The translations under genes were made by a program, and so were the position numbers. Positions 5,848 to 13,537 of a stretch of 30,738 bases of DNA are shown here, one piece after another. The stretch comes from Gaiellaceae bacterium (GTDB lineage Bacteria; Actinomycetota; Thermoleophilia; Gaiellales; Gaiellaceae): the NCBI GenBank assembly GCA_051005735.1, contig JBPCJB010000125.1:1-30738 (forward strand), written 5' to 3'. Within the stretch, counting starts at the first letter, position 1, and each line of letters starts with the position of its first letter. The notes beneath the pieces are model-generated. The model was given only the letters and a program-made list of their open reading frames with translations. It made no database searches and was not told the DNA's origin.

Positions 5848-7053
5848 GTGACCGAGCTTGCGATCGAGCCGCAGGTCAAGGAGCGTCGCGCCCAGGTGCG
5901 CGCGTTCATGGAGGAGCACGTCTACCCGAACGAGGCGGCGCTCGAGCGCGAGGACGACGCTGCGGACAGGCTGATCGCCGAGCTGCGCGAGCGGGCGAAG
6001 GAGGCGGGGATCTGGGCGCCGCACCTACCCGCGGAGGCGGGCGGCACCGGCTCCGGTTTCATCGAGTACGCGCTCCTGAACGAGGAGATCGGACGGAGCA
6101 TGTGGGCGCAGCTCGTCTTCAACTGTCAGGCGCCCGACGCGGGGAACGGTGAGATCCTGCACCTGTTCGGCACCGACGAGCAGAAGGAGCAGTTCCTCCG
6201 GCCGCTCGTGGAGGGGACGGCGCGCTCGTTCTTCTCGATGACCGAGCCCGAGGTGTCCGGCGCGGATCCGACGGCGCTTCGCACCACCGCGGTCGCGGAC
6301 GGCGACGAGTGGGTGGTCGACGGGCACAAGTGGTTCTCGTCCTCGGCGGAGGGTGCGACCTTCGGAATCGTGATGGCGGTCACCGATCCGGAGGCCCCGC
6401 CGCACCGGCGGATGAGCCAGATCCTCGTCCCGGCCGATACGCCGGGCGTCGAGATCGTCCGGCCGATCCCCGTGATGGGGCACGAGGGCCGGGGCTGGTC
6501 GACGCACTGCGAGGTCCGTTATACGGGCGTGCGAGTGCCGCTCGAGAACGTCCTCGGCGAGCCGGGCGATGGCTTCCGGATCGCGCAGAAGCGGCTCGGG
6601 CCGGGGCGGATCCACCACGTGATGCGCTGGCTCGGCCAGATGCAGCGCGCCTTCGAGCTGATGTGCTCCTATGCGCTCGAGCGCGAGGTCGGCGGCGGCC
6701 CACTCGCCGAGAAGCAGACCGTGCAGAACTGGATCGCCGACTCGGCGGCCGAGATCCAGGCCTGCCGGTTGATGACGCTCGACGCCGCGCGCAAGCTCGA
6801 TGAGGGCGACGAGGCCCGCATCGAGGTCTCGCTGGTCAAGTTCTTCGCGGCGCAGGTGCTTCACGACGTGATCGACCGCGCGATCCAGGTGCACGGCGGC
6901 CGGGGGCTGACCGACCTGAGCCCGCTCGGCCAGATGTACATCCACGCCCGCGGCGCCCGCATCTACGACGGTCCCGACGAGGTCCACCGGATGGTTGTCG
7001 CCCGCCGGATCCTGAAGACGTTCGCCGACGGCGGCGTCTACGAGTTCGACTGA
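5848..7053 (+). CDS. Acyl-CoA dehydrogenase (ACAD10/11-like subfamily)
   Basis: 401 aa with FNCQAPDAGNGE, FSMTEPEVSGAD, DGHKWFSS, AQKRLGPGRIHH and RIYDGPDEVH. Confidence 0.93.
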   Translation: MTELAIEPQVKERRAQVRAFMEEHVYPNEAALEREDDAADRLIAELRERAKEAGIWAPHLPAEAGGTGSGFIEYALLNEEIGRSMWAQLVFNCQAPDAGNGEILHLFGTDEQKEQFLRPLVEGTARSFFSMTEPEVSGADPTALRTTAVADGDEWVVDGHKWFSSSAEGATFGIVMAVTDPEAPPHRRMSQILVPADTPGVEIVRPIPVMGHEGRGWSTHCEVRYTGVRVPLENVLGEPGDGFRIAQKRLGPGRIHHVMRWLGQMQRAFELMCSYALEREVGGGPLAEKQTVQNWIADSAAEIQACRLMTLDAARKLDEGDEARIEVSLVKFFAAQVLHDVIDRAIQVHGGRGLTDLSPLGQMYIHARGARIYDGPDEVHRMVVARRILKTFADGGVYEFD

Positions 7054-7064
7054 CCCTTCCGGCC

Positions 7065-7206
7065 CACGTCCGGGGTCAAAGCCCGGGGGTCAAAGCCCGG
7101 ACACGTCCCGTCGGCGGGCGAAACCCCAACCAGCAGGCGTTTTCGCTGCGTGGTGTCCGTAGCGGACACGTCCGGGCTTTGACCCCGGGCACGTCGCGGC
7201 GACGTG
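7065..7206. repeat. REP/BIME-like cluster of palindromic repeats between convergent genes
   Basis: CCGGGGTCAAAGCCCGG at 7070-7086, a tandem copy GGGGTCAAAGCCCGG at 7086-7100, and an exact inverted copy at 7172-7188. GGACACGTCC occurs twice (7099-7108, 7164-7173). There are also hairpins GTGTCCG-TAG-CGGACAC (7153-7169) and CACGTCG-CGG-CGACGTG (7190-7206). Confidence 0.75.
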
Positions 7207-7213
7207 TAGTCGG

Positions 7214-7780
7214 CTAGCCGAGCTCGGCCTCGATCGCGCGCGCCAGCTCGGCCGGGTCGAAGCCGTCGGGGCCGCGGTCGCCCTGGAAGGCGATCCGGCC
7301 GTCGCGGCCGATCAGGTAGAGCCGGTCGGGCCAGCCGCCGTAGGCCAGGGCGACGGCGTCGTCGACGTCGTCGAGGAGCAACGGAATCCGCGTCTGCAGG
7401 CGCGCGACGCACGCGTCCGCGGCGGCTGCCCGCTCGTCGTGCGTCGTCGGATCAGTGAGCGCGATTTCCTCCCGGCGGTTGTCGGCGAGCACCCAACCGT
7501 CTTCCGGATGCGCTTCGCGGATGTAGACGATGAAGAACGCGACCTCGTCGCCGTGGCGTTCGTAGAGGTCCTCCAGCTCGCCCAACTGGCGGCGGAAGGG
7601 AGGTCAGGTGTAGGAGCCGAAGACGAGCGCGACGGCGTGCCCGCGAGCTCGGCGAGTCGAACGCGCTCGGCGCTCGGGCGCTGCGATTTCGGGGTCGAGC
7701 CGCGGCAGGTCGAAGGGGAAGGCGGGATCGCCGGGGCCGACCTCGGGAGTCATCAGGCTCTGGTAGCCGGGGGACCCCAT
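7214..7780 (-). CDS. Iodothyronine deiodinase-like selenoprotein (thioredoxin fold), Sec at in-frame UGA 7606-7604
   Basis: ATG at 7780 (GAGG upstream) is in frame with TGA 7604-7606 and with the ORF 7214..7585. Read-through gives VALVFGSYT-U-PPFRRQLGELEDLYERHGDEVAFFIVYIREAHPEDGW...YGGWPDRLYLIG..GRIAFQGDRGPDGF, matching the deiodinase signatures FGSxTUPPF and YIxEAH. Confidence 0.9.
7570..7603 (-). promoter_or_regulatory. Candidate bacterial SECIS hairpin directly 3' of the deiodinase-like UGA
   Basis: The minus strand after UGA reads CCTCC-cttccgc-CGCC-AGTTG-GGCG-agct-GGAGG: a lower stem CCTCC/GGAGG, an upper stem CGCC/GGCG, and an apical loop containing GU about 17-21 nt from the UGA. Folded by eye. 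Confidence 0.65.
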
Positions 7781-7827
7781 CACGTCCTCGAGCGAGAGCG
7801 GCGAGTCGGGCGGCGTCTCGGGTCGAC

Positions 7828-8754
7828 TCACCCGGCGAGCTGGCGGCGACGCTGCATGTCCGTGGTCGGCGTGTTCACCTTCCAGACGAGCCCGAGGCGA
7901 CGCAGCAGCCGGATCACGAGACCGCCGATGTCGAGCTCCCAGGGCTTGAGGCCGTGGAACGCCGACGACGGGAACGCGTGGTGGTTGTGGTGCCACGATT
8001 CGCCGAACGAGATCCACGAGAGCCACCAGACGTTGCGCGACTCGTCCTTCACCTGGAAGCGCCGCGACCCGATGAAGTGGCAGACGGAATTGACCGACCA
8101 CGTGATGTGGTGGAGCAGGAAGATCCGGATCAGGCCGCCCCAGAACATGGCCTGGAGACCGGCGCCGAGCGTGCCGCCCCAGATCCAACCGGCCACGAAC
8201 GGGAGCACGAGTGAGGCCGCGACCCACGCCGGGAACCAACGCGAGATGAAGACCATCCCGCGGTCGGCCAACATGTCTTTCGCGTACTTCGTCCACTCAG
8301 CCCGGCCGACGTTGCGGAAGAGCCAGCCGACGTGCGCGTGCCAGAGCCCCGCGAGCTTGCCCCGGAGGCCGGGTGCGAAGCCGGCGTGCGGTGAGTGCGG
8401 ATCCCCCTCGCGGTCGGCGAAGTTGTGGTGCTTGCGGTGATCGGAAACCCAGCGAATCACCGGTCCCTGCACGGCCATCGAGCCGAGCACGGCGAGCCCG
8501 TAGCGGATCGCCCGGTACGTCTCGTAGGAGCGGTGCGTGAAGAGTCGGTGAAAGCCGATCGAGATCCCGAGCGTCGTCAGCGCGTAGCCGACCGCGAAGA
8601 TGATCAGGTCGCGCCAGGTCACGTAGCTGCCCCAGAGAAGGAAGATCGAGGCCAGGAAGCCGACGAAGGGGAGCGTGACGCCGAGGAGGTTGGTGATCTT
8701 CTGGCCCCGGGTCATGTGCAGCTCGGCCGGGGTCTCGGCGGTGATCTCGCTCAC
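7828..8754 (-). CDS. Membrane acyl-CoA (delta-9-type) fatty acid desaturase
   Basis: 308 aa with three His boxes (HRLFTH, HRKHH, HHNHH), hydrophobic segments and NSVCH. Confidence 0.93.
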   Translation of the reverse strand: MSEITAETPAELHMTRGQKITNLLGVTLPFVGFLASIFLLWGSYVTWRDLIIFAVGYALTTLGISIGFHRLFTHRSYETYRAIRYGLAVLGSMAVQGPVIRWVSDHRKHHNFADREGDPHSPHAGFAPGLRGKLAGLWHAHVGWLFRNVGRAEWTKYAKDMLADRGMVFISRWFPAWVAASLVLPFVAGWIWGGTLGAGLQAMFWGGLIRIFLLHHITWSVNSVCHFIGSRRFQVKDESRNVWWLSWISFGESWHHNHHAFPSSAFHGLKPWELDIGGLVIRLLRRLGLVWKVNTPTTDMQRRRQLAG

Positions 8755-8819
8755 TGAAGGAGGAGAGTAGCCGCCCTTCGTTGCCTCTGTAAGGCGGCGA
8801 CCATAAGGTACGCCGACGC

Positions 8820-9564
8820 ATGGCCCTCCTCTCGCTGCGGAACGTCACCCGCCGCTTCGGCGGCATCGTCGCCCTCGACGGTGTCACCTTCGACGTGGGC
8901 GAGGGCCAGATCGTCGGGCTGATCGGTCCGAACGGCGCCGGCAAGACGACAGCCTTCAACGTGATCACCCGCCTCTACACCCCGAACGAGGGCGAGGTCG
9001 AGTTCGCCGGGGAGAGCCTCCTGAAGGCGCCGGCACACGGAATCGTCCGCCGCGGAATCGCTCGCACCTTTCAGAACGTGGAGCTCTTCCGGACGATGTC
9101 CGCGCTCGAGAACGTGCTCGTCGGGGCGCACACGCGCGGCCGCGAGACCGAGCAGCAGGCGCTCGAGGCGCTCGACTACGTCGGGCTCGCGGCGATCGCC
9201 CGCCGGCCCGTCGCCGGTCTTCCCTTCGGAACGTTGAAGCGCGTCGAGCTGGCCCGTGCCCTCGTCGCCCAGCCGAGGCTCCTGCTCCTCGACGAGCCGG
9301 CCGGCGGGCTGAACCACGAGGAGGTCGAGGAGCTCGGCCGCTTCATCCGTCAGATCCGGGATGACCGCGAGCTGACGGTGCTGCTCGTCGAGCATCACAT
9401 GAACCTCGTGATGGGGATCTCCGACCACGTCCACGTGCTCAACTTCGGCCGTCAGATCGCCGGCGGCACACCGGGCGAGGTGCGTACGAACCCGGCCGTG
9501 ATCGAGGCCTACCTCGGGACCGACGACGAGCATGCGCCGAAGCGGAACGGCGCGAAGGCCACCG

Positions 9565-9578
<14 letters not shown>
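8820..9578 (+). CDS. livG: LIV-family ABC transporter ATP-binding protein
   Basis: Walker A GPNGAGKT, GIARTFQN, LLLLDEP and LVEHHM. Confidence 0.92.
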
Positions 9579-10269
<691 letters not shown>

Positions 10270-10277
10270 GCGGAACG

Positions 10278-11162
10278 TTGGCGGCCTTCTTCCAGCAGAT
10301 CGTCGCCGGCCTCGCCACGGGAGCCATCTACGCGGCGCTCGCGCTCGCGCTCGTCCTGATCCACCGCGCCACAGGAGTGATCAACTTCGCGCAGGGGGAG
10401 ATGGCGATGTTCACGACCTACATCGCCTGGACGCTGACCGCGAACCACGGTTGGTCGTACTGGCCCGCGTTCGCCGTCACGCTCCTCTTCGCGTTCACGC
10501 TCGGGTTGGGGCTCCAGCGGATCGTGATCCGGCCGATCGAGCGCGGCCCGATCCTGACGACGGTGATCGTCACGATCGGGCTCGTGCTCATCTTCAACGG
10601 GGCGGCGGGCTGGATCTGGTCGGCCGAGGTGCGGGCGTTCCCGAGCCCGTTCCCGAACGACACGTGGACGATCGGGGGGGTCGCGATCTCGGTTCAGGAC
10701 GTCGGCACGTTCGGCGTCGTCGTCGTGCTCGTGCTCCTCCTCGCAGCGTTCTTCCGCTTCACGAAGATCGGCCTCGCCCTGCGCGCGTCGGCGCTGAATC
10801 CAGAGGCGAGCCGGCTCGTGGGGGTGCGCGTCGGCTGGATGCTCGGGATCGGTTGGGGACTCGCCGCCGTGCTCGGAGCGGTCGCGGGGATGCTTGCCGC
10901 CCCGACCATCTTCCTCGACCCGAACCTCATGCAGGCGATCCTGATCTACTCCTTCGCGGCCGCGGTGCTCGGCGGGATCGACTCGCCGCTCGGCGCGGTC
11001 GCGGGCGGGCTCCTGCTCGGCGTCGGCCTCAACTTGATCGGCGCGTACGTGGACTTCGTCGGCGCCGACCTGCGCCTGCCGGTGGCGCTCCTGATCATCC
11101 TGGTCGTTCTGCTCGTGCGTCCGGCAGGGCTCTTCGGGAAGCCCGTGACGAGGCGCGTATGA
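10278..11162 (+). CDS. livH: LIV-family ABC transporter permease
   Basis: Hydrophobic 294 aa (TTG start) with TGVINFAQGE, GLALRASALNPEASRLVG and AAVLGGIDS. Confidence 0.9.
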   Translation: MAAFFQQIVAGLATGAIYAALALALVLIHRATGVINFAQGEMAMFTTYIAWTLTANHGWSYWPAFAVTLLFAFTLGLGLQRIVIRPIERGPILTTVIVTIGLVLIFNGAAGWIWSAEVRAFPSPFPNDTWTIGGVAISVQDVGTFGVVVVLVLLLAAFFRFTKIGLALRASALNPEASRLVGVRVGWMLGIGWGLAAVLGAVAGMLAAPTIFLDPNLMQAILIYSFAAAVLGGIDSPLGAVAGGLLLGVGLNLIGAYVDFVGADLRLPVALLIILVVLLVRPAGLFGKPVTRRV

Positions 11163-12289
11163 GCCTCCCGACCCTGAGACGAGGCGAGCTCGCACGGGTG
11201 GCGCTCTTCCTGCTCGCAGCAGCGGCCGTCCTGCTCCTGCCGCGCCTGATCAGCGATTTTCGCGCCCAGCAGTACGCCTACGTCGGGATCTACCTGATCG
11301 CGCTACTCGGCCTCAACGTCCTCACCGGCTTCACCGGCCAGATCTCGCTCGGGCACGGCGCCTTCATGGCGATCGGCGGCTACACGACCGCGATCCTGAT
11401 CTCGGACTCGGATCCCGCGCTGAAGCTCGGGTCGCACGTCTTCTCGAACGACATGAAGGACCTCTGGACGATCCCGCTCGCCGGCCTCGTCGCGGGGCTC
11501 GTCGGCTTCCTCTTCGGCTTCCCCGCCTTGCGGCTGACCGGCCTCTACCTCGCGCTCGCGACGTTCGCGGTCGCCGTCGCGACGCCGGCGGTGATCAAGA
11601 AGTTCGAGGGCTTCACCGGCGGCGGCGGTGGGATCCAGCTCTTCGGCCTGGAGGGGCTGACGGCGACGCCGAAGACCGATCCGATCACGTTCGAGTCGAC
11701 CGAGGGGGCGACCGTCCTCGGGTTCGAGATTACGACGTTCAACGACTGGCTCTACTACCTGAGCTGGGCGATCGCGATCGTGATGTTCGCCATCGCCTGG
11801 GCGCTCCTGCGCGGGCGGATGGGACGGGCGTTCCGGGCCGTGCGGGACAGCGAGCTCGCCGCGGCCTCCTCGGGCGTCAACCTCGCGCGCTACAAGACGC
11901 TCGCGTTCGGGATCAGCGCGTTCTATGCGGGCGTCGCCGGCTCGTTGCTCGCGATTGCGACGACGTTCGTCAATCCCGACACCTTCCCGATCACGCTCTC
12001 GATCTTCCTCCTCGTGGGGGTGGTCGTCGGCGGCCTCGGCTCGCTCTGGCCGCTCGTGCTCGGCGCCGTCTTCATCCAGTTCCTGCCGCTCTGGGCGCAG
12101 CAACTGAACGGACCGCTCCCCGATTCGCTCGGGCCGCTCAGCGTGCCCAACTTCCAGGCGCCGGGCGCGCCGGCCGTCGTCTACGGCGTGATCCTGATCC
12201 TCGTCATGCTGGCCTTCCCGGGCGGCGCGGCAGGGCTCGTGCGCAGGGTCCAGTCGCTGGCGACTCGCGGCTACCATCGCGGTCGCTAG
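11159..12289 (+). CDS. livM: LIV-family ABC transporter permease
   Basis: The ATG at 11159 overlaps the livH stop. Contains GFTGQISLGHGAF, LRLTGLYLALAT, GRAFRAVRDSELAA and GVVVGG. Confidence 0.9.
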   Translation: MSLPTLRRGELARVALFLLAAAAVLLLPRLISDFRAQQYAYVGIYLIALLGLNVLTGFTGQISLGHGAFMAIGGYTTAILISDSDPALKLGSHVFSNDMKDLWTIPLAGLVAGLVGFLFGFPALRLTGLYLALATFAVAVATPAVIKKFEGFTGGGGGIQLFGLEGLTATPKTDPITFESTEGATVLGFEITTFNDWLYYLSWAIAIVMFAIAWALLRGRMGRAFRAVRDSELAAASSGVNLARYKTLAFGISAFYAGVAGSLLAIATTFVNPDTFPITLSIFLLVGVVVGGLGSLWPLVLGAVFIQFLPLWAQQLNGPLPDSLGPLSVPNFQAPGAPAVVYGVILILVMLAFPGGAAGLVRRVQSLATRGYHRGR

Positions 12290-12313
12290 CCGACCAAGGA
12301 GCCCCTGCCGCCG

Positions 12314-13537
12314 ATGCGTCGTCCCAAGCTCGTTCTCTCCATGCTCATGCTCGCCGGAGCGATCGCGACCGGCGCGACCGCAGCCTCCGGCGCCGATCCG
12401 GGCATCTCCACGAAAACGATCCTGCTCGGCGGCACCTCGCCGCTCTCCGGCCCGGCCTCCGCCTACGCCTCGGTCGCGCGCGGCGCCGATGCCTACTTCA
12501 AGCACGTGAACGCGCGCGGCGGCGTCAACGGCCGGAGGATCGCCTACAAGTACGTCGACGACGCCTACAACCCGGCGCAGACGATCCAGGCGACCCGTCA
12601 GCTCGTGGAGCAGGACAAGGTCTTCGCCATCTTCAACTCGCTCGGAACCGAGCAGAACGTGGCGACGCGCGACTACCTGAACCAACTCCGGGTGCCGCAG
12701 CTCTTCGTCGCCTCCGGCGCGACCACGTTCGGGCGCGACCACAAGCGCTATCCCTACACGATCGGCTTCCAGCCGAGCTACCAGGCGGAAGGCTGGATCT
12801 ACGGCACCTATCTCGCGCGCACGAAGCCCGGCGCGAAGATCGCTGTCCTCTTCCAGAACGACGACTACGGCAAGGACCTGATGACCGGGCTGCGGCAGGG
12901 GATCGCGCGCTCGAAGGTGAGGATCGTCGCCGCCGAGGGCTACGAGGTGACGGCGACCGACGTCCAGTCGCAGATCGCGAAGCTGAAGGCCTCGGGCGCC
13001 ACGACGCTCGCGCTCTTCGCGACGCCGAAGTTCGCGATCCAGGGCTACGTGTTCGCAAACCGGCTCGGCTGGCGGCCGCTCGTCCTCAACAACGCCGTCT
13101 CGAGCGCTTCGAACATCATGACGCTCGCCTCCGAGGGGAACACGAATCGAACCGTGGAGAACTCGGTCTCGATCGTCTTCCTCAAGGATCCGACCGATCC
13201 GAAGTGGCGGAACGATTCCGCGATGAGGCTCTACCGCTCGATCATGGGCAGGTACGCGCGTGGCGCGAACGTTAGGGACGTCTACCACGTCTATGGAATG
13301 GCGGTCGCGCACGAGACCGCGCGGGTGCTGAGGGCGACGGGCAAGAACCCGACCCGGGCGGCGCTCCTCGCGCAGCTGCGGAAGCTGAACGACGCGTCGA
13401 ACCCCTTCCTGCTGCCCGGAATCGCGATCAAGACGAGCGGGACCGAGCGCTTCCCGATCGAGCAGGCGCTCCTCCAGCGGTGGTCAAAGGGCTCGTGGCA
13501 GAGCTTCGGCGGCCTCTGGGGCTACCGCGCCGGTTGA
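12314..13537 (+). CDS. livK: LIV-family ABC transporter substrate-binding protein (type 1 periplasmic binding fold)
   Basis: Signal peptide followed by PLSGPAS, VNARGGVNGRRI, DDAYNP and QNDDYG. AAGGAG lies upstream. The substrate cannot be determined from sequence. Confidence 0.88.
   Translation: MRRPKLVLSMLMLAGAIATGATAASGADPGISTKTILLGGTSPLSGPASAYASVARGADAYFKHVNARGGVNGRRIAYKYVDDAYNPAQTIQATRQLVEQDKVFAIFNSLGTEQNVATRDYLNQLRVPQLFVASGATTFGRDHKRYPYTIGFQPSYQAEGWIYGTYLARTKPGAKIAVLFQNDDYGKDLMTGLRQGIARSKVRIVAAEGYEVTATDVQSQIAKLKASGATTLALFATPKFAIQGYVFANRLGWRPLVLNNAVSSASNIMTLASEGNTNRTVENSVSIVFLKDPTDPKWRNDSAMRLYRSIMGRYARGANVRDVYHVYGMAVAHETARVLRATGKNPTRAALLAQLRKLNDASNPFLLPGIAIKTSGTERFPIEQALLQRWSKGSWQSFGGLWGYRAG

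What the first reader, a model, noticed from the sequence alone, without database searches (positions are those of the whole stretch)
7214..7780. Hidden deiodinase-like selenoprotein (FGSYT-U-PPF) with a SECIS-like hairpin
Seen: the ORF track splits this gene at TGA 7604-7606. Read-through gives a contiguous 188-aa thioredoxin-fold protein with FGSYTUPPF, YIREAH and a PxRLY...GP.GF tail, and a stem-loop with a GU-containing loop starts right after the UGA. Known: vertebrate iodothyronine deiodinases carry Sec in FGSCTUP(S/P)F with a downstream YIxEAH, and bacterial deiodinase-like proteins exist but their substrates are unknown. Inference: this actinobacterium encodes a Sec-dependent reductive dehalogenase or oxidoreductase, downstream of and probably co-transcribed with a fatty-acid desaturase (47-nt gap). 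Standard annotation would miss or truncate it.
Basis: partly seen in the sequence, partly recalled or inferred. Interest (0 to 1): 0.87.

Follow-up and report, generated by a model that had tools for sequence, protein, structure and literature searches.

The report
Deiodinase-like selenoprotein gene in Gaiellaceae
This soil or sediment actinobacterium (Gaiellaceae) really does encode a small selenocysteine enzyme related to animal thyroid-hormone deiodinases, which gene callers cut in half; but bacterial proteins of this kind have been known since 2005, so it is a new member of a known family.

Summary
On the minus strand, a gene at 7831..7214 (205 aa) carries an in-frame TGA at 7606..7604 inside FGSYT-U-PPF.

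- **Sec decoding:** The genome has tRNA-Sec, selA, selB and selD. All 20 same-genus orthologues inspected, and about 30 more distant ones from several other phyla, keep TGA at this codon. Other homologues have TGC or TGT there.
- **SECIS:** A hairpin 14-31 nt after the UGA (apical loop AGUUG) shows suppressed synonymous change and compensatory pair changes.
- **Reads:** Contigs from four public runs (three studies) confirm the TGA.
- **Family:** Pfam T4_deiodinase scores 94 bits. The AlphaFold model's best PDB matches are mouse Dio2 and Dio3.
- **Novelty:** This is the "deiodinase-like" bacterial selenoprotein family described in 2005, so it is a new member, not a new kind. Its function is still unknown.

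- The true start is GTG 7831, overlapping the desaturase stop (GTGA). There is no 47-nt gap.
- The desaturase link is confined to this genus, and the gene is missing from the same locus in four near-complete genomes of the genus.
- The thyronine-binding His219 is replaced by an invariant Pro.
- The window's allele has a compensated +1/-1 frameshift pair that scrambles 18 residues (49-66) just upstream of the active site.

The parts
7214..7831 (-). Full coding sequence of the deiodinase-like selenoprotein: 205 aa, GTG start 7831..7829, Sec76, TAG stop 7216..7214.
   Evidence: Read-through translation. Start placed by orthologue comparison. Pfam PF00837 94.4 bits against a cut-off of 27. PDB Dio3 E 5e-22. 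AF2 pLDDT 88.4 with best Foldseek hits Dio2 and Dio3.
7604..7606 (-). UGA codon read as selenocysteine (residue 76, in FGSYT-U-PPF).
   Evidence: TGA at the same codon in 20 of 20 genus orthologues and in 38 of 46 more distant loci with the motif; the other 8 have TGC or TGT. Unchanged in contigs from 4 runs of 3 studies.
7570..7599 (-). Bacterial SECIS hairpin inside the coding sequence. Upper stem-loop 7593..7576, apical loop AGUUG 7587..7583, bulged A 7578.
   Evidence: Fold. Codons +4..+11 have the lowest synonymous diversity of 77 windows, 0.056 against 0.26, with Leu fixed as the rare TTG in 26 of 26. Synonymous-shuffle z -2.1. Covariation score 0.252 against 0.136, reached by 0 of 500 shuffles, peaking at slide 0.
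7828..7831 (-). GTGA overlap: GTG start of the selenoprotein gene (7831..7829) and TGA stop of the desaturase (7830..7828). This suggests translational coupling.
   Evidence: Sequence. The same start-near-stop arrangement occurs in the orthologues.
7634..7687 (-). 18 codons (residues 49-66, IAAPERRARSTRRARGHA) read out of frame relative to all orthologues (SHRPSAERVRLAELAGSP). The stretch is bounded by an extra A in GAAA 7690..7687 and a missing base between 7632 and 7633.
   Evidence: DNA alignment with 19 orthologues. Both indels are present in contigs of runs X1 and X2. Run X4 has the C restored behind 7632 but keeps the extra A. pLDDT dips to 66-77 here.
7828..7830 (-). An ordinary TGA stop codon, ending the desaturase gene in the same operon.
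   Evidence: It shows that TGA is a stop in this genome unless a SECIS follows. The acyl-CoA dehydrogenase gene also ends in TGA, at 7051-7053.
7828..8754 (-). Upstream membrane fatty-acid/acyl-CoA desaturase gene (308 aa), first gene of the two-gene unit.
   Evidence: PF00487 74 bits. Atlas clusters are named fatty-acid or acyl-CoA desaturase. It is adjacent to the selenoprotein gene in every genus locus carrying that gene that was examined.

Best explanation
Window 7831..7214 (minus strand) is a genuine selenoprotein gene of the bacterial 'deiodinase-like' family (Pfam PF00837), in a Gaiellaceae (Thermoleophilia, Actinomycetota) metagenome-assembled genome.

Shown here:
- The UGA at 7606..7604 is conserved across phyla and alternates with Cys codons in homologues.
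- A conserved, covarying hairpin with a G/U-containing apical loop lies 14-31 nt downstream. This is where SelB-bound Sec-tRNA is recruited in bacteria.
- The genome carries selA, selB, selC and selD.
- The protein folds like the catalytic core of mouse Dio2 and Dio3.
- It keeps the Ser-x-Thr-Sec-Pro-Pro-Phe turn and the Tyr103...Glu106-Ala-His108...Trp113 network (Dio3 Tyr197, Glu200, His202, Trp207), plus Arg134 (Arg225) and Arg170 (Arg260).

Inferred:
- It is a soluble cytoplasmic Sec-dependent oxidoreductase.
- The selenolate attacks an electrophilic substrate (a peroxide, or a halogen on an aromatic ring).
- The oxidised selenium is then resolved by a thiol, most likely the family-specific Cys141 (98% conserved) or an external thiol.
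- It is not an iodothyronine deiodinase. There is no membrane anchor, the proximal Cys is Tyr, His219 is replaced by an invariant Pro, and Arg275 varies across the family.

In this genus the gene is translationally coupled (GTGA) to a fatty-acid desaturase gene, but it is an accessory gene there. The window's own allele carries a compensated frameshift pair that rewrites residues 49-66, so its activity may be impaired.
For: - **Sec machinery:**. SelA was found in 36 of 36 genomes of the genus.
- **Conserved TGA:** (one TGA in 25 full-length genus hits; identical position in 20 of 20; TGA in Gaiellales, Chloroflexota, Gammaproteobacteria, Myxococcota, Latescibacterota, Planctomycetota, Thermoanaerobaculia; TGC or TGT in Pirellulaceae, Opitutales, Rhodospirillaceae).
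- **Purifying selection across the gene:** dN/dS 0.16-0.24 against orthologues.
- **SECIS:**
- **TGA is real:**
- **TGA is a normal stop elsewhere in the operon:**
- **Homology and fold:**
- **Invariant residues:**
- **Mapping to Dio3 residues:** the alignment, with residue roles from PMC7506546 and PMC9141512.
- **Family already described:** PMC1088965.
Against: - There is no direct evidence of selenium incorporation or of transcription. RNA runs held 7% or less of the sampled words.
- The substrate is unknown. No gene neighbour is conserved across phyla.
- The Cys141 resolving role is inferred from conservation alone. No distance to Sec76 could be measured.
- The window's allele has 18 scrambled residues, including the conserved strand (RVRLAELAG in the nearest orthologue) and Pro66, with lower model confidence there. 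This particular copy may be crippled.
- Reviews give the family motif as UxxC, whereas this clade has UPPF. It may therefore be a different subclade from the published representatives.
Confidence: 0.9

Rival explanations
1. The family is a real selenoprotein family, but the copy in this window is a recently damaged or only partly rescued allele. A +1 insertion broke the frame, a later -1 deletion 55 nt downstream restored it, and the resulting Arg-rich 18-residue replacement of the strand before the active site leaves a poorly folding or inactive protein.
For: - The indel pair is seen against all 19 orthologues.
- It is present in independently built contigs of runs X1 and X2. Run X4 shows the apparent intermediate, with the extra A kept and the C not deleted, so the N-terminus is out of frame.
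- The near-invariant Pro66 is lost.
- pLDDT is 66-77 over the segment, against 88 overall.
- dN/dS against orthologues (0.16-0.24) is slightly above that between two other orthologue pairs (0.11-0.14).
- The gene is dispensable in the genus.
Against: - The reading frame is intact for 205 codons.
- Every catalytic and family-invariant residue from F71 onward is kept.
- The SECIS is intact.
- dN/dS is still far below 1.
- X1 and X2 may be the samples the genome was assembled from, so they are not independent. The X4 contig has only 3.8x depth.
Confidence: 0.3
2. The enzyme is a true Sec-dependent reductive dehalogenase of halogenated aromatics. It would use the halogen-bond / selenenyl-halide chemistry of animal deiodinases on environmental iodo- or bromo-phenolics.
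For: - Closest sequence and fold relatives are Dio3 and Dio2.
- The Ser73/Thr75/Sec76, Tyr103/Glu106/His108 and Trp113 constellation implicated in deiodination is invariant.
- Asp117, which aligns with the halogen-bonding Asp211 of Dio3, is present in the window's genus.
Against: - His219 (His174 in DIO1), important for substrate binding, aligns with an invariant Pro128.
- Arg275, which holds the thyronine carboxylate, varies across the family.
- The proximal Cys is Tyr.
- No dehalogenation-related neighbours were found.
- The same fold and residues also fit a peroxiredoxin-like peroxidase or thiol-disulfide oxidoreductase; the next-best fold hits are ResA, TlpA and Prx.
Confidence: 0.15
3. 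In this genus the selenoprotein works with the desaturase encoded just upstream, for example by reducing lipid hydroperoxides or keeping the desaturase or its lipid substrate reduced.
For: There is a 4-nt GTGA start/stop overlap. The adjacency holds in every genus locus carrying the gene that was examined.
Against: - The adjacency is absent outside the genus, in Chloroflexota, other Gaiellales, Proteobacteria and others.
- Four near-complete genus genomes keep the ABC-desaturase-acyl-CoA dehydrogenase locus without the gene.
- A second desaturase paralogue exists elsewhere without it.
Confidence: 0.1
4. The TGA is a plain stop codon or an error, so the locus is a pseudogene or two short ORFs.
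For: Gene callers treat it this way.
Against: - The same TGA is kept in about 58 loci over several phyla, with purifying selection on both sides.
- Cys-codon homologues exist.
- A SECIS is present.
- The Sec machinery is present.
- Contigs from four runs agree.
Confidence: 0.02

Closest known systems
Bacterial deiodinase-like selenoprotein family (Zhang, Fomenko & Gladyshev 2005, Sargasso Sea selenoproteome, PMC1088965; listed in PMC9312934 and PMC13188914)
   Same: Pfam PF00837. Sec and Cys forms both occur. A bacterial SECIS lies directly downstream of the UGA, with a G in a small apical loop. It has a thioredoxin fold, and its function is unknown but presumed to be redox.
   Different: The reviews give the redox motif as UxxC. 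This clade has U-P-P-F, with no Cys at +3 and a distal conserved Cys141 instead. The published examples are marine metagenome sequences. This clade is abundant in soil and sediment Gaiellaceae, where it sits behind a desaturase gene. Whether it is the same subclade as the published representatives could not be checked.
Vertebrate iodothyronine deiodinases Dio1-3 (structures 4TR3/4TR4 Dio3, 9H48 Dio2)
   Same: Best sequence hit (E 5e-22) and best fold hits (TM 0.73-0.81 by target). It shares FGS-x-T-U-PPF, Y-I-x-EAHP-x-DGW, the Arg225 and Arg260 equivalents, and the GP(D)G(F/Y) tail.
   Different: There is no N-terminal membrane anchor. Proximal Cys168 is Tyr74, as in Dio2, which also lacks this Cys (SATU). 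His219 is an invariant Pro128. The omega-loop region is 3 residues longer than in Dio3 in the alignment. Arg275 is not conserved across the family. The distal Cys is at a different position (Cys141 against Cys239). The SECIS is within the coding sequence and bacterial, not in a 3' UTR.
NCBIfam NF038285 'deiodinase family protein' (hypothetical equivalog, 347 positions)
   Same: The C-terminal 142 residues match profile positions 199-340 at 178.6 bits.
   Different: The score is below the 250-bit cut-off. That family has an N-terminal part of about 200 residues that this 205-aa protein lacks.
Peroxiredoxin / TlpA-ResA-CcmG thiol-disulfide oxidoreductases
   Same: They share the thioredoxin-fold core and are the next-best fold hits after Dio2 and Dio3. 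There are weak AhpC-TSA and Redoxin Pfam hits.
   Different: There is no CxxC or PxxxTxxC motif. Those Pfam scores are below the gathering thresholds.

Membership tests
Bacterial selenoprotein (SelB/SECIS-dependent UGA recoding) | In-frame UGA aligned with Cys in homologues, and conserved as UGA in orthologues | tested here: met
   TGA in 58 loci and TGC or TGT in 8 loci. Full-length Cys proteins P0004 and P0010.
Bacterial selenoprotein (SelB/SECIS-dependent UGA recoding) | Stem-loop directly downstream of the UGA with a small apical loop containing G (the bacterial SECIS as described in PMC1088965) | tested here: met
   Hairpin at +8..+37 with loop AGUUG. Synonymous-site constraint. Covariation. 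More stable than synonymous shuffles.
Bacterial selenoprotein (SelB/SECIS-dependent UGA recoding) | Genome encodes tRNA-Sec, SelA, SelB and SelD | tested here: met
   tRNA-SeC, anticodon tca; SelA 427 bits; SelB winged-helix domain, 770-aa frame next to selA; SelD 346 bits.
Bacterial selenoprotein (SelB/SECIS-dependent UGA recoding) | Selenium is actually incorporated at the UGA | not testable with these tools
   Needs 75Se labelling or mass spectrometry.
Deiodinase family (Pfam PF00837 T4_deiodinase) | Profile match above the gathering score | tested here: met
   94.4 bits against a cut-off of 27, E 8.5e-27.
Deiodinase family (Pfam PF00837 T4_deiodinase) | Thioredoxin fold with the deiodinase-type insertion; closest structures are deiodinases | tested here: met
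   AF2 pLDDT 88.4, pTM 0.86. Foldseek ranks 1-2 are 9H48 (Dio2) and 4TR3 (Dio3).
Deiodinase family (Pfam PF00837 T4_deiodinase) | Active-site Ser-x-Thr-Sec/Cys-Pro and the Tyr...Glu-Ala-His...Trp network | tested here: met
   S73, T75, U76, P77, Y103, E106, H108 and W113 are invariant or nearly so in 39-43 sequences.
Iodothyronine deiodinase (the enzyme activity, EC 1.21.99.3/4) | Thyronine-binding residues His219 and Arg275 (Dio3 numbering) | tested here: not met
   His219 aligns with invariant Pro128. Arg275 aligns with position 186, which is R, V, P, E or Q across the family. Residue roles come from PMC7506546.
Iodothyronine deiodinase (the enzyme activity, EC 1.21.99.3/4) | N-terminal membrane anchor; dimeric integral membrane enzyme | tested here: not met
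   There is no hydrophobic segment in residues 1-47. The model shows two short helices there. Dimerisation was not testable.
Iodothyronine deiodinase (the enzyme activity, EC 1.21.99.3/4) | Reductive dehalogenation activity | not testable with these tools
   Needs an enzyme assay.
NCBIfam NF038285 deiodinase_rel | Whole-protein score above the curated cut-off (250 bits) | tested here: not met
   178.6 bits, matching only profile positions 199-340 of 347.

The most novel reading that the evidence does not exclude
This UPPF clade of soluble bacterial deiodinase homologues, which is widespread in soil Gaiellaceae and Chloroflexota, is a genuine selenium-dependent reductive dehalogenase acting on natural halogenated phenolics. 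That would be the ancestral chemistry from which animal thyroid-hormone deiodinases arose, and a cofactor-free dehalogenation route distinct from the corrinoid reductive dehalogenases.
Probability: 0.12. Interest if true: 0.75.

Novelty: new member of a known kind. Interest (0 to 1): 0.32.

Why it matters
- **Annotation:** This is a clean, well-supported missed selenoprotein. Public protein collections hold many truncated 123-aa fragments of this clade: most of the 120 best hits listed, out of 1386 at E<=1e-10, are ~123-aa pieces that begin at the TTG inside the SECIS loop. Recognising the UGA/SECIS would repair many annotations in soil Actinomycetota and Chloroflexota.
- **Biology:** It extends a family of unknown function, first seen in marine metagenomes, to Gaiellaceae in soil and sediment. 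It also gives a residue-level comparison with Dio2 and Dio3 that says which parts of the deiodinase active site are ancient and which are thyronine-specific.
- **Limits:** It does not change what is known about recoding or about the family's existence.

Tried and rejected
- **Dinucleotide-shuffle stability of the 60 nt after the UGA:** not significant (z -0.71), because GC-rich sequence folds anyway. I replaced it with synonymous-codon shuffles, synonymous diversity and covariation.
- **Rfam scan of 7000-8900:** no SECIS family hit. There were only two sub-threshold miRNA-model hits on the 106-nt palindrome at 7083-7189.
- **Promoter and terminator scan:** nothing above chance.
- **Search for a gene neighbour conserved across phyla:** clustering the flanking ORFs of about 35 diverse loci gave only the gene itself, its shadow frames and generic ABC ATPases. 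The context of Cys homologues was unrelated.
- **ORF 8751..9533(-) as a third operon gene:** rejected. The real genes there are livG/livF-type ABC ATPases on the plus strand.
- **Exact-product look-up of the window's 123-aa fragment:** not on record.
- **Earlier notes of this scan:** none for this genome on selenocysteine.
- **Frameshift pair as an assembler artefact:** considered unlikely, because independently built Logan contigs of X1 and X2 carry both indels and X4 carries one. However, X1 and X2 may be the source samples.
- **Unpublished genome:** G008 is one of the 36 genus genomes counted. No conclusion depends on it.
Full report
**1. What is in the sequence**

The feature lies on the minus strand. 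Reading 7840..7214 with TGA as U gives one continuous thioredoxin-fold protein. It has a single in-frame TGA at 7606..7604 inside VALVFGSYT-U-PPFRRQLGELE. This is followed by VYIREAHPEDGW and a WPDRLYLIGRDGRIAFQGDRGPDGF tail, and the gene ends at TAG 7216..7214. The mechanical ORF list splits it into 7214..7585 (123 aa, TTG start) and a long frame ending at 7604.

**2. Gene limits**

- Each orthologue has a start codon 7-12 codons before DSPL, next to the stop of the upstream gene.
- Cys-containing homologues share this N-terminus, and one (P0094) has Leu in place of the internal Met.
- In the window the start is therefore GTG 7831..7829, which overlaps the TGA stop of the desaturase gene (7830..7828) as GTGA.
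- The protein is 205 aa, Sec is residue 76, and there is no 47-nt gap.

**3. Is the UGA decoded as Sec?**

*Machinery.* The window's genome is an 80%-complete assembly of 309 contigs. It has:
- a tRNA-Sec (67.9 bits; ARAGORN SeC, anticodon tca);
- selA (427 bits);
- selB next to selA;
- selD (346 bits).

SelA is found in all 36 genomes sampled from the genus (one of them, G008, is unpublished and not needed for the conclusion).

*Conservation.*
- A search of 60 relatives found full-length orthologues at 70-82% identity in 25 genomes of the genus, each with one TGA inside.
- In the 20 fetched loci the TGA is at the identical codon.
- A scan of one genome per species found further homologues. 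Those with TGA at this codon come from Gaiellales, Solirubrobacteraceae, Chloroflexota/Dehalococcoidia, Gammaproteobacteria, Myxococcota, Latescibacterota, Planctomycetota and Thermoanaerobaculia. Those with TGC or TGT come from Pirellulaceae, Opitutales and Rhodospirillaceae.
- This is the classical Sec/Cys pair signature.
- dN/dS between the window's gene and orthologues is 0.16-0.24 on the part spanning the UGA and downstream, and 0.25-0.27 on the N-terminal 44 codons. Both halves are therefore under purifying selection.

*The base call.* Logan contigs of four public runs from three studies cover 7604-7606 without change.

*TGA as a stop.* TGA is an ordinary stop elsewhere: the desaturase and the acyl-CoA dehydrogenase genes beside it both end in TGA.

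**4. The SECIS**

- Directly after the UGA the RNA folds into a hairpin. The lower stem pairs +8..+12 with +33..+37. The upper stem pairs +14..+19 with +25..+31, with a bulged A. The apical loop is AGUUG (7587..7583).
- Against dinucleotide shuffles this is unremarkable (z -0.71). Three better tests support it.
- *Synonymous constraint.* In 26 distinct genus sequences, the eight codons +4..+11 (CGC CGC CAG TTG GGC GAG CTG GAG) have mean synonymous diversity 0.056, against 0.26 for the other conserved codons. This is the lowest of 77 sliding windows (Mann-Whitney p 0.003). Leu +7 is the rare TTG in 26 of 26, whereas nearly all other Leu codons in the gene are CTC or CTG.
- *Synonymous shuffles.* Compared with recodings that keep the protein and the gene's codon usage, the window's 42 nt are more stable than 97% of shuffles (z -2.1). 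Nineteen representatives of Sec clades average z -1.35, against -0.65 for eight Cys forms.
- *Covariation.* Different lineages keep a hairpin at the same place with different stems, for example CGCC/GGCG, GGCACC/GGUGCC, GGAUCC/GGAUCC, GGCUUC/GGAGCC, CGCGUCC/GGACGCG and GAGGC/GCCUC. On a covariance-model alignment of 38 sequences, 4 of 6 pairs show double changes. The covariation score is 0.252 against 0.136 for shuffles (0 of 500 reach it), and it peaks at the true register. That alignment is fitted to the model, so it leans towards the structure.
- The features match the bacterial SECIS as described for this family in 2005: a small apical loop with a conserved G, directly downstream of the UGA (PMC1088965).

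**5. What the protein is**

- Pfam T4_deiodinase scores 94.4 bits against a cut-off of 27.
- NCBIfam 'deiodinase family protein' NF038285 scores 178.6 bits, below its 250-bit cut-off. Only the C-terminal 142 positions of that longer family match.
- The best solved relatives by sequence are mouse Dio3 (E 5e-22) and Dio2 (E 6e-17).
- An AlphaFold2 model built on 39 homologues has pLDDT 88.4 and pTM 0.86. Its best PDB fold matches are Dio2 (9H48) and Dio3 (4TR3), then the ResA/TlpA/DsbE-type thiol-disulfide oxidoreductases and peroxiredoxins.

*Invariant or near-invariant residues across 39-43 family members:* F71, G72, S73, T75, U76, P77, F79, Y103, E106, A107, H108, P109, D111, G112, W113, P128, R134, A138, C141 (98%), D154, Y164, P168, R170, Y172, G187, P188.

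*Mapping to Dio3,* using the alignment and the residue roles in PMC7506546 and PMC9141512:

| Window residue | Dio3 residue | Status |
|---|---|---|
| Ser73 | Ser167 | conserved |
| Tyr74 | Cys168 (proximal) | not conserved |
| Thr75 | Thr169 | conserved |
| Sec76 | Sec170 | conserved |
| Pro77-Pro78 | Pro171/172 | conserved |
| Tyr103 | Tyr197 | conserved |
| Glu106 | Glu200 | conserved |
| His108 | His202 | conserved |
| Trp113 | Trp207 | conserved |
| Pro128 (invariant) | His219 | not conserved |
| Arg134 | Arg225 | conserved |
| Arg170 | Arg260 | conserved |
| position 186 | Arg275 | variable across the family (Arg in the window) |
| Cys141 | none; distal Cys239 aligns 8 residues further on, with Ile149 | family-specific Cys |
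| Gly187-Pro188 | Gly276-Pro277 | conserved |

Also, there is no N-terminal membrane anchor.

The catalytic core is therefore deiodinase-like, but the thyronine-binding parts are not. This agrees with the 2005 authors' view that the bacterial proteins serve another redox function.

**6. Mechanism: what is shown and what is inferred**

*Shown:* UGA recoding context, fold, and conserved active-site residues.

*Inferred:* The Sec76 selenolate attacks an oxidising substrate, giving a selenenic acid or selenenyl halide. This is resolved by a thiol, with the family-specific Cys141 as the best internal candidate. An external thiol system then reduces it. I could not measure the Sec76-Cys141 distance, because the tool returns no coordinates. 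Peroxidase or thiol-oxidoreductase activity and dehalogenase activity cannot be separated by sequence.

**7. Context**

- The organism is a Gaiellaceae bacterium. The nearest named records are 'uncultured Gaiellaceae bacterium' and 'Candidatus Gaiellasilicea' genomes. The matching public runs are sediment, soil and terrestrial metagenomes.
- The local gene order is: livG/livF/livH/livM-type ABC transporter on the plus strand from 8820; divergently, desaturase 8754..7828 plus the selenoprotein gene 7831..7214; then a palindromic repeat; then a convergent acyl-CoA dehydrogenase 5848..7053.
- The desaturase-selenoprotein pair is found in every genus locus that carries the gene, but in none of the homologous loci from other families or phyla.
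- Four 92-96%-complete genomes of the genus keep the ABC-desaturase-dehydrogenase locus with no trace of the gene detectable by tblastn.
- The selenoprotein is thus an accessory gene and not an obligatory partner of the desaturase.

**8. The window's allele is unusual**

- Compared with all 19 orthologues, the window has one extra A (GAAA 7690..7687) and lacks one base between 7632 and 7633.
- The 18 codons between them (7687..7634, residues 49-66) are read out of frame. The window reads IAAPERRARSTRRARGHA where the nearest orthologue reads SHRPSAERVRLAELAGSP. The conserved strand before the active site and the near-invariant Pro66 are lost.
- Contigs of runs X1 and X2 (one study, possibly the source of the assembly) carry both indels.
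- A contig of X4 (a different study, 3.8x depth) has the missing C restored but keeps the extra A. That would put its N-terminus out of frame.
- X3 switches to an orthologue-like sequence beyond 7635.
- The simplest reading is a frameshift followed by a second-site compensating deletion.
- The model's confidence dips to 66-77 over this stretch.
- Whether this allele is active is open. All residues from F71 on, and the SECIS, are intact.

**9. Novelty**

- Bacterial Sec- and Cys-containing deiodinase-like proteins with bacterial SECIS elements were reported in 2005 (PMC1088965). They are listed among more than 110 prokaryotic selenoprotein families in 2022 and 2026 reviews. So this is a new member of a known kind.
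- New here are:
  - the Gaiellaceae distribution and the genus-specific coupling to a desaturase gene;
  - the UPPF/Cys141 signature (the reviews list UxxC);
  - the residue-level contrast with Dio2 and Dio3;
  - the compensated frameshift allele.
- The annotation problem is real. Of 1386 database proteins with E<=1e-10, most of the 120 best listed are ~123-aa fragments that start at the TTG in the SECIS loop. They are named 'hypothetical protein' or 'iodothyronine deiodinase'. One caller translated the UGA as Trp (P0094).

Noticed in passing
window 7083-7189 (arms 7087-7108 + and 7164-7185 -): The intergenic space between the selenoprotein gene and the convergent acyl-CoA dehydrogenase gene holds a ~106-nt palindromic element (GGGTCAAAGCCCGGACACGTCC and its inverted copy). 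The 22-mer occurs 24 times in this genome at 3 or fewer mismatches (0 for the reversed control), often as inverted pairs 70-105 nt apart. It looks like a REP/MITE-like dispersed repeat. Many partial contig matches ended here in the read laying, and Rfam gave only a spurious sub-threshold miRNA hit.
   Followed up: partly
window 7632/7633 and 7687-7690; run X4 contig over 7537-7747: The two compensating indels vary within the population. One public run from a different study has the C restored behind 7632 but keeps the extra A. This looks like a single-frameshift intermediate of the window's doubly shifted allele.
   Followed up: partly
L096-L099 (syntenic loci of four same-genus genomes): The selenoprotein gene is present or absent at the same locus within the genus. 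The space between the desaturase and acyl-CoA dehydrogenase genes is 19-130 bp in two genomes and about 400-620 bp in two others, with no detectable remnant.
   Followed up: partly
L041 (6001-6616) and protein P0003: Other assemblies of this gene (a long-contig Gaiellaceae genome, and a metagenome protein call) also show frameshifts just upstream of or around the Sec codon. These could be sequencing errors in GC-rich homopolymer runs, or further real lesions.
   Followed up: no
window 8820-12289 (+): A branched-chain-amino-acid-type ABC transporter operon (two ATPases, two permeases) runs divergently from the desaturase gene. The long minus-strand ORFs over it (8751..9533, 10266..11195, 11303..13312) are shadow frames with no Pfam hits.
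   Followed up: partly
L074, L075, L079 (Rhodospirillaceae and Alphaproteobacteria Cys forms), nt +10..+27 after the TGC/TGT: Some Cys-containing homologues still show a small hairpin (CGCGAUCAAUUGCG-like) where the SECIS sits in Sec forms. It could be a relic of a Sec ancestor, or chance.
   Followed up: no
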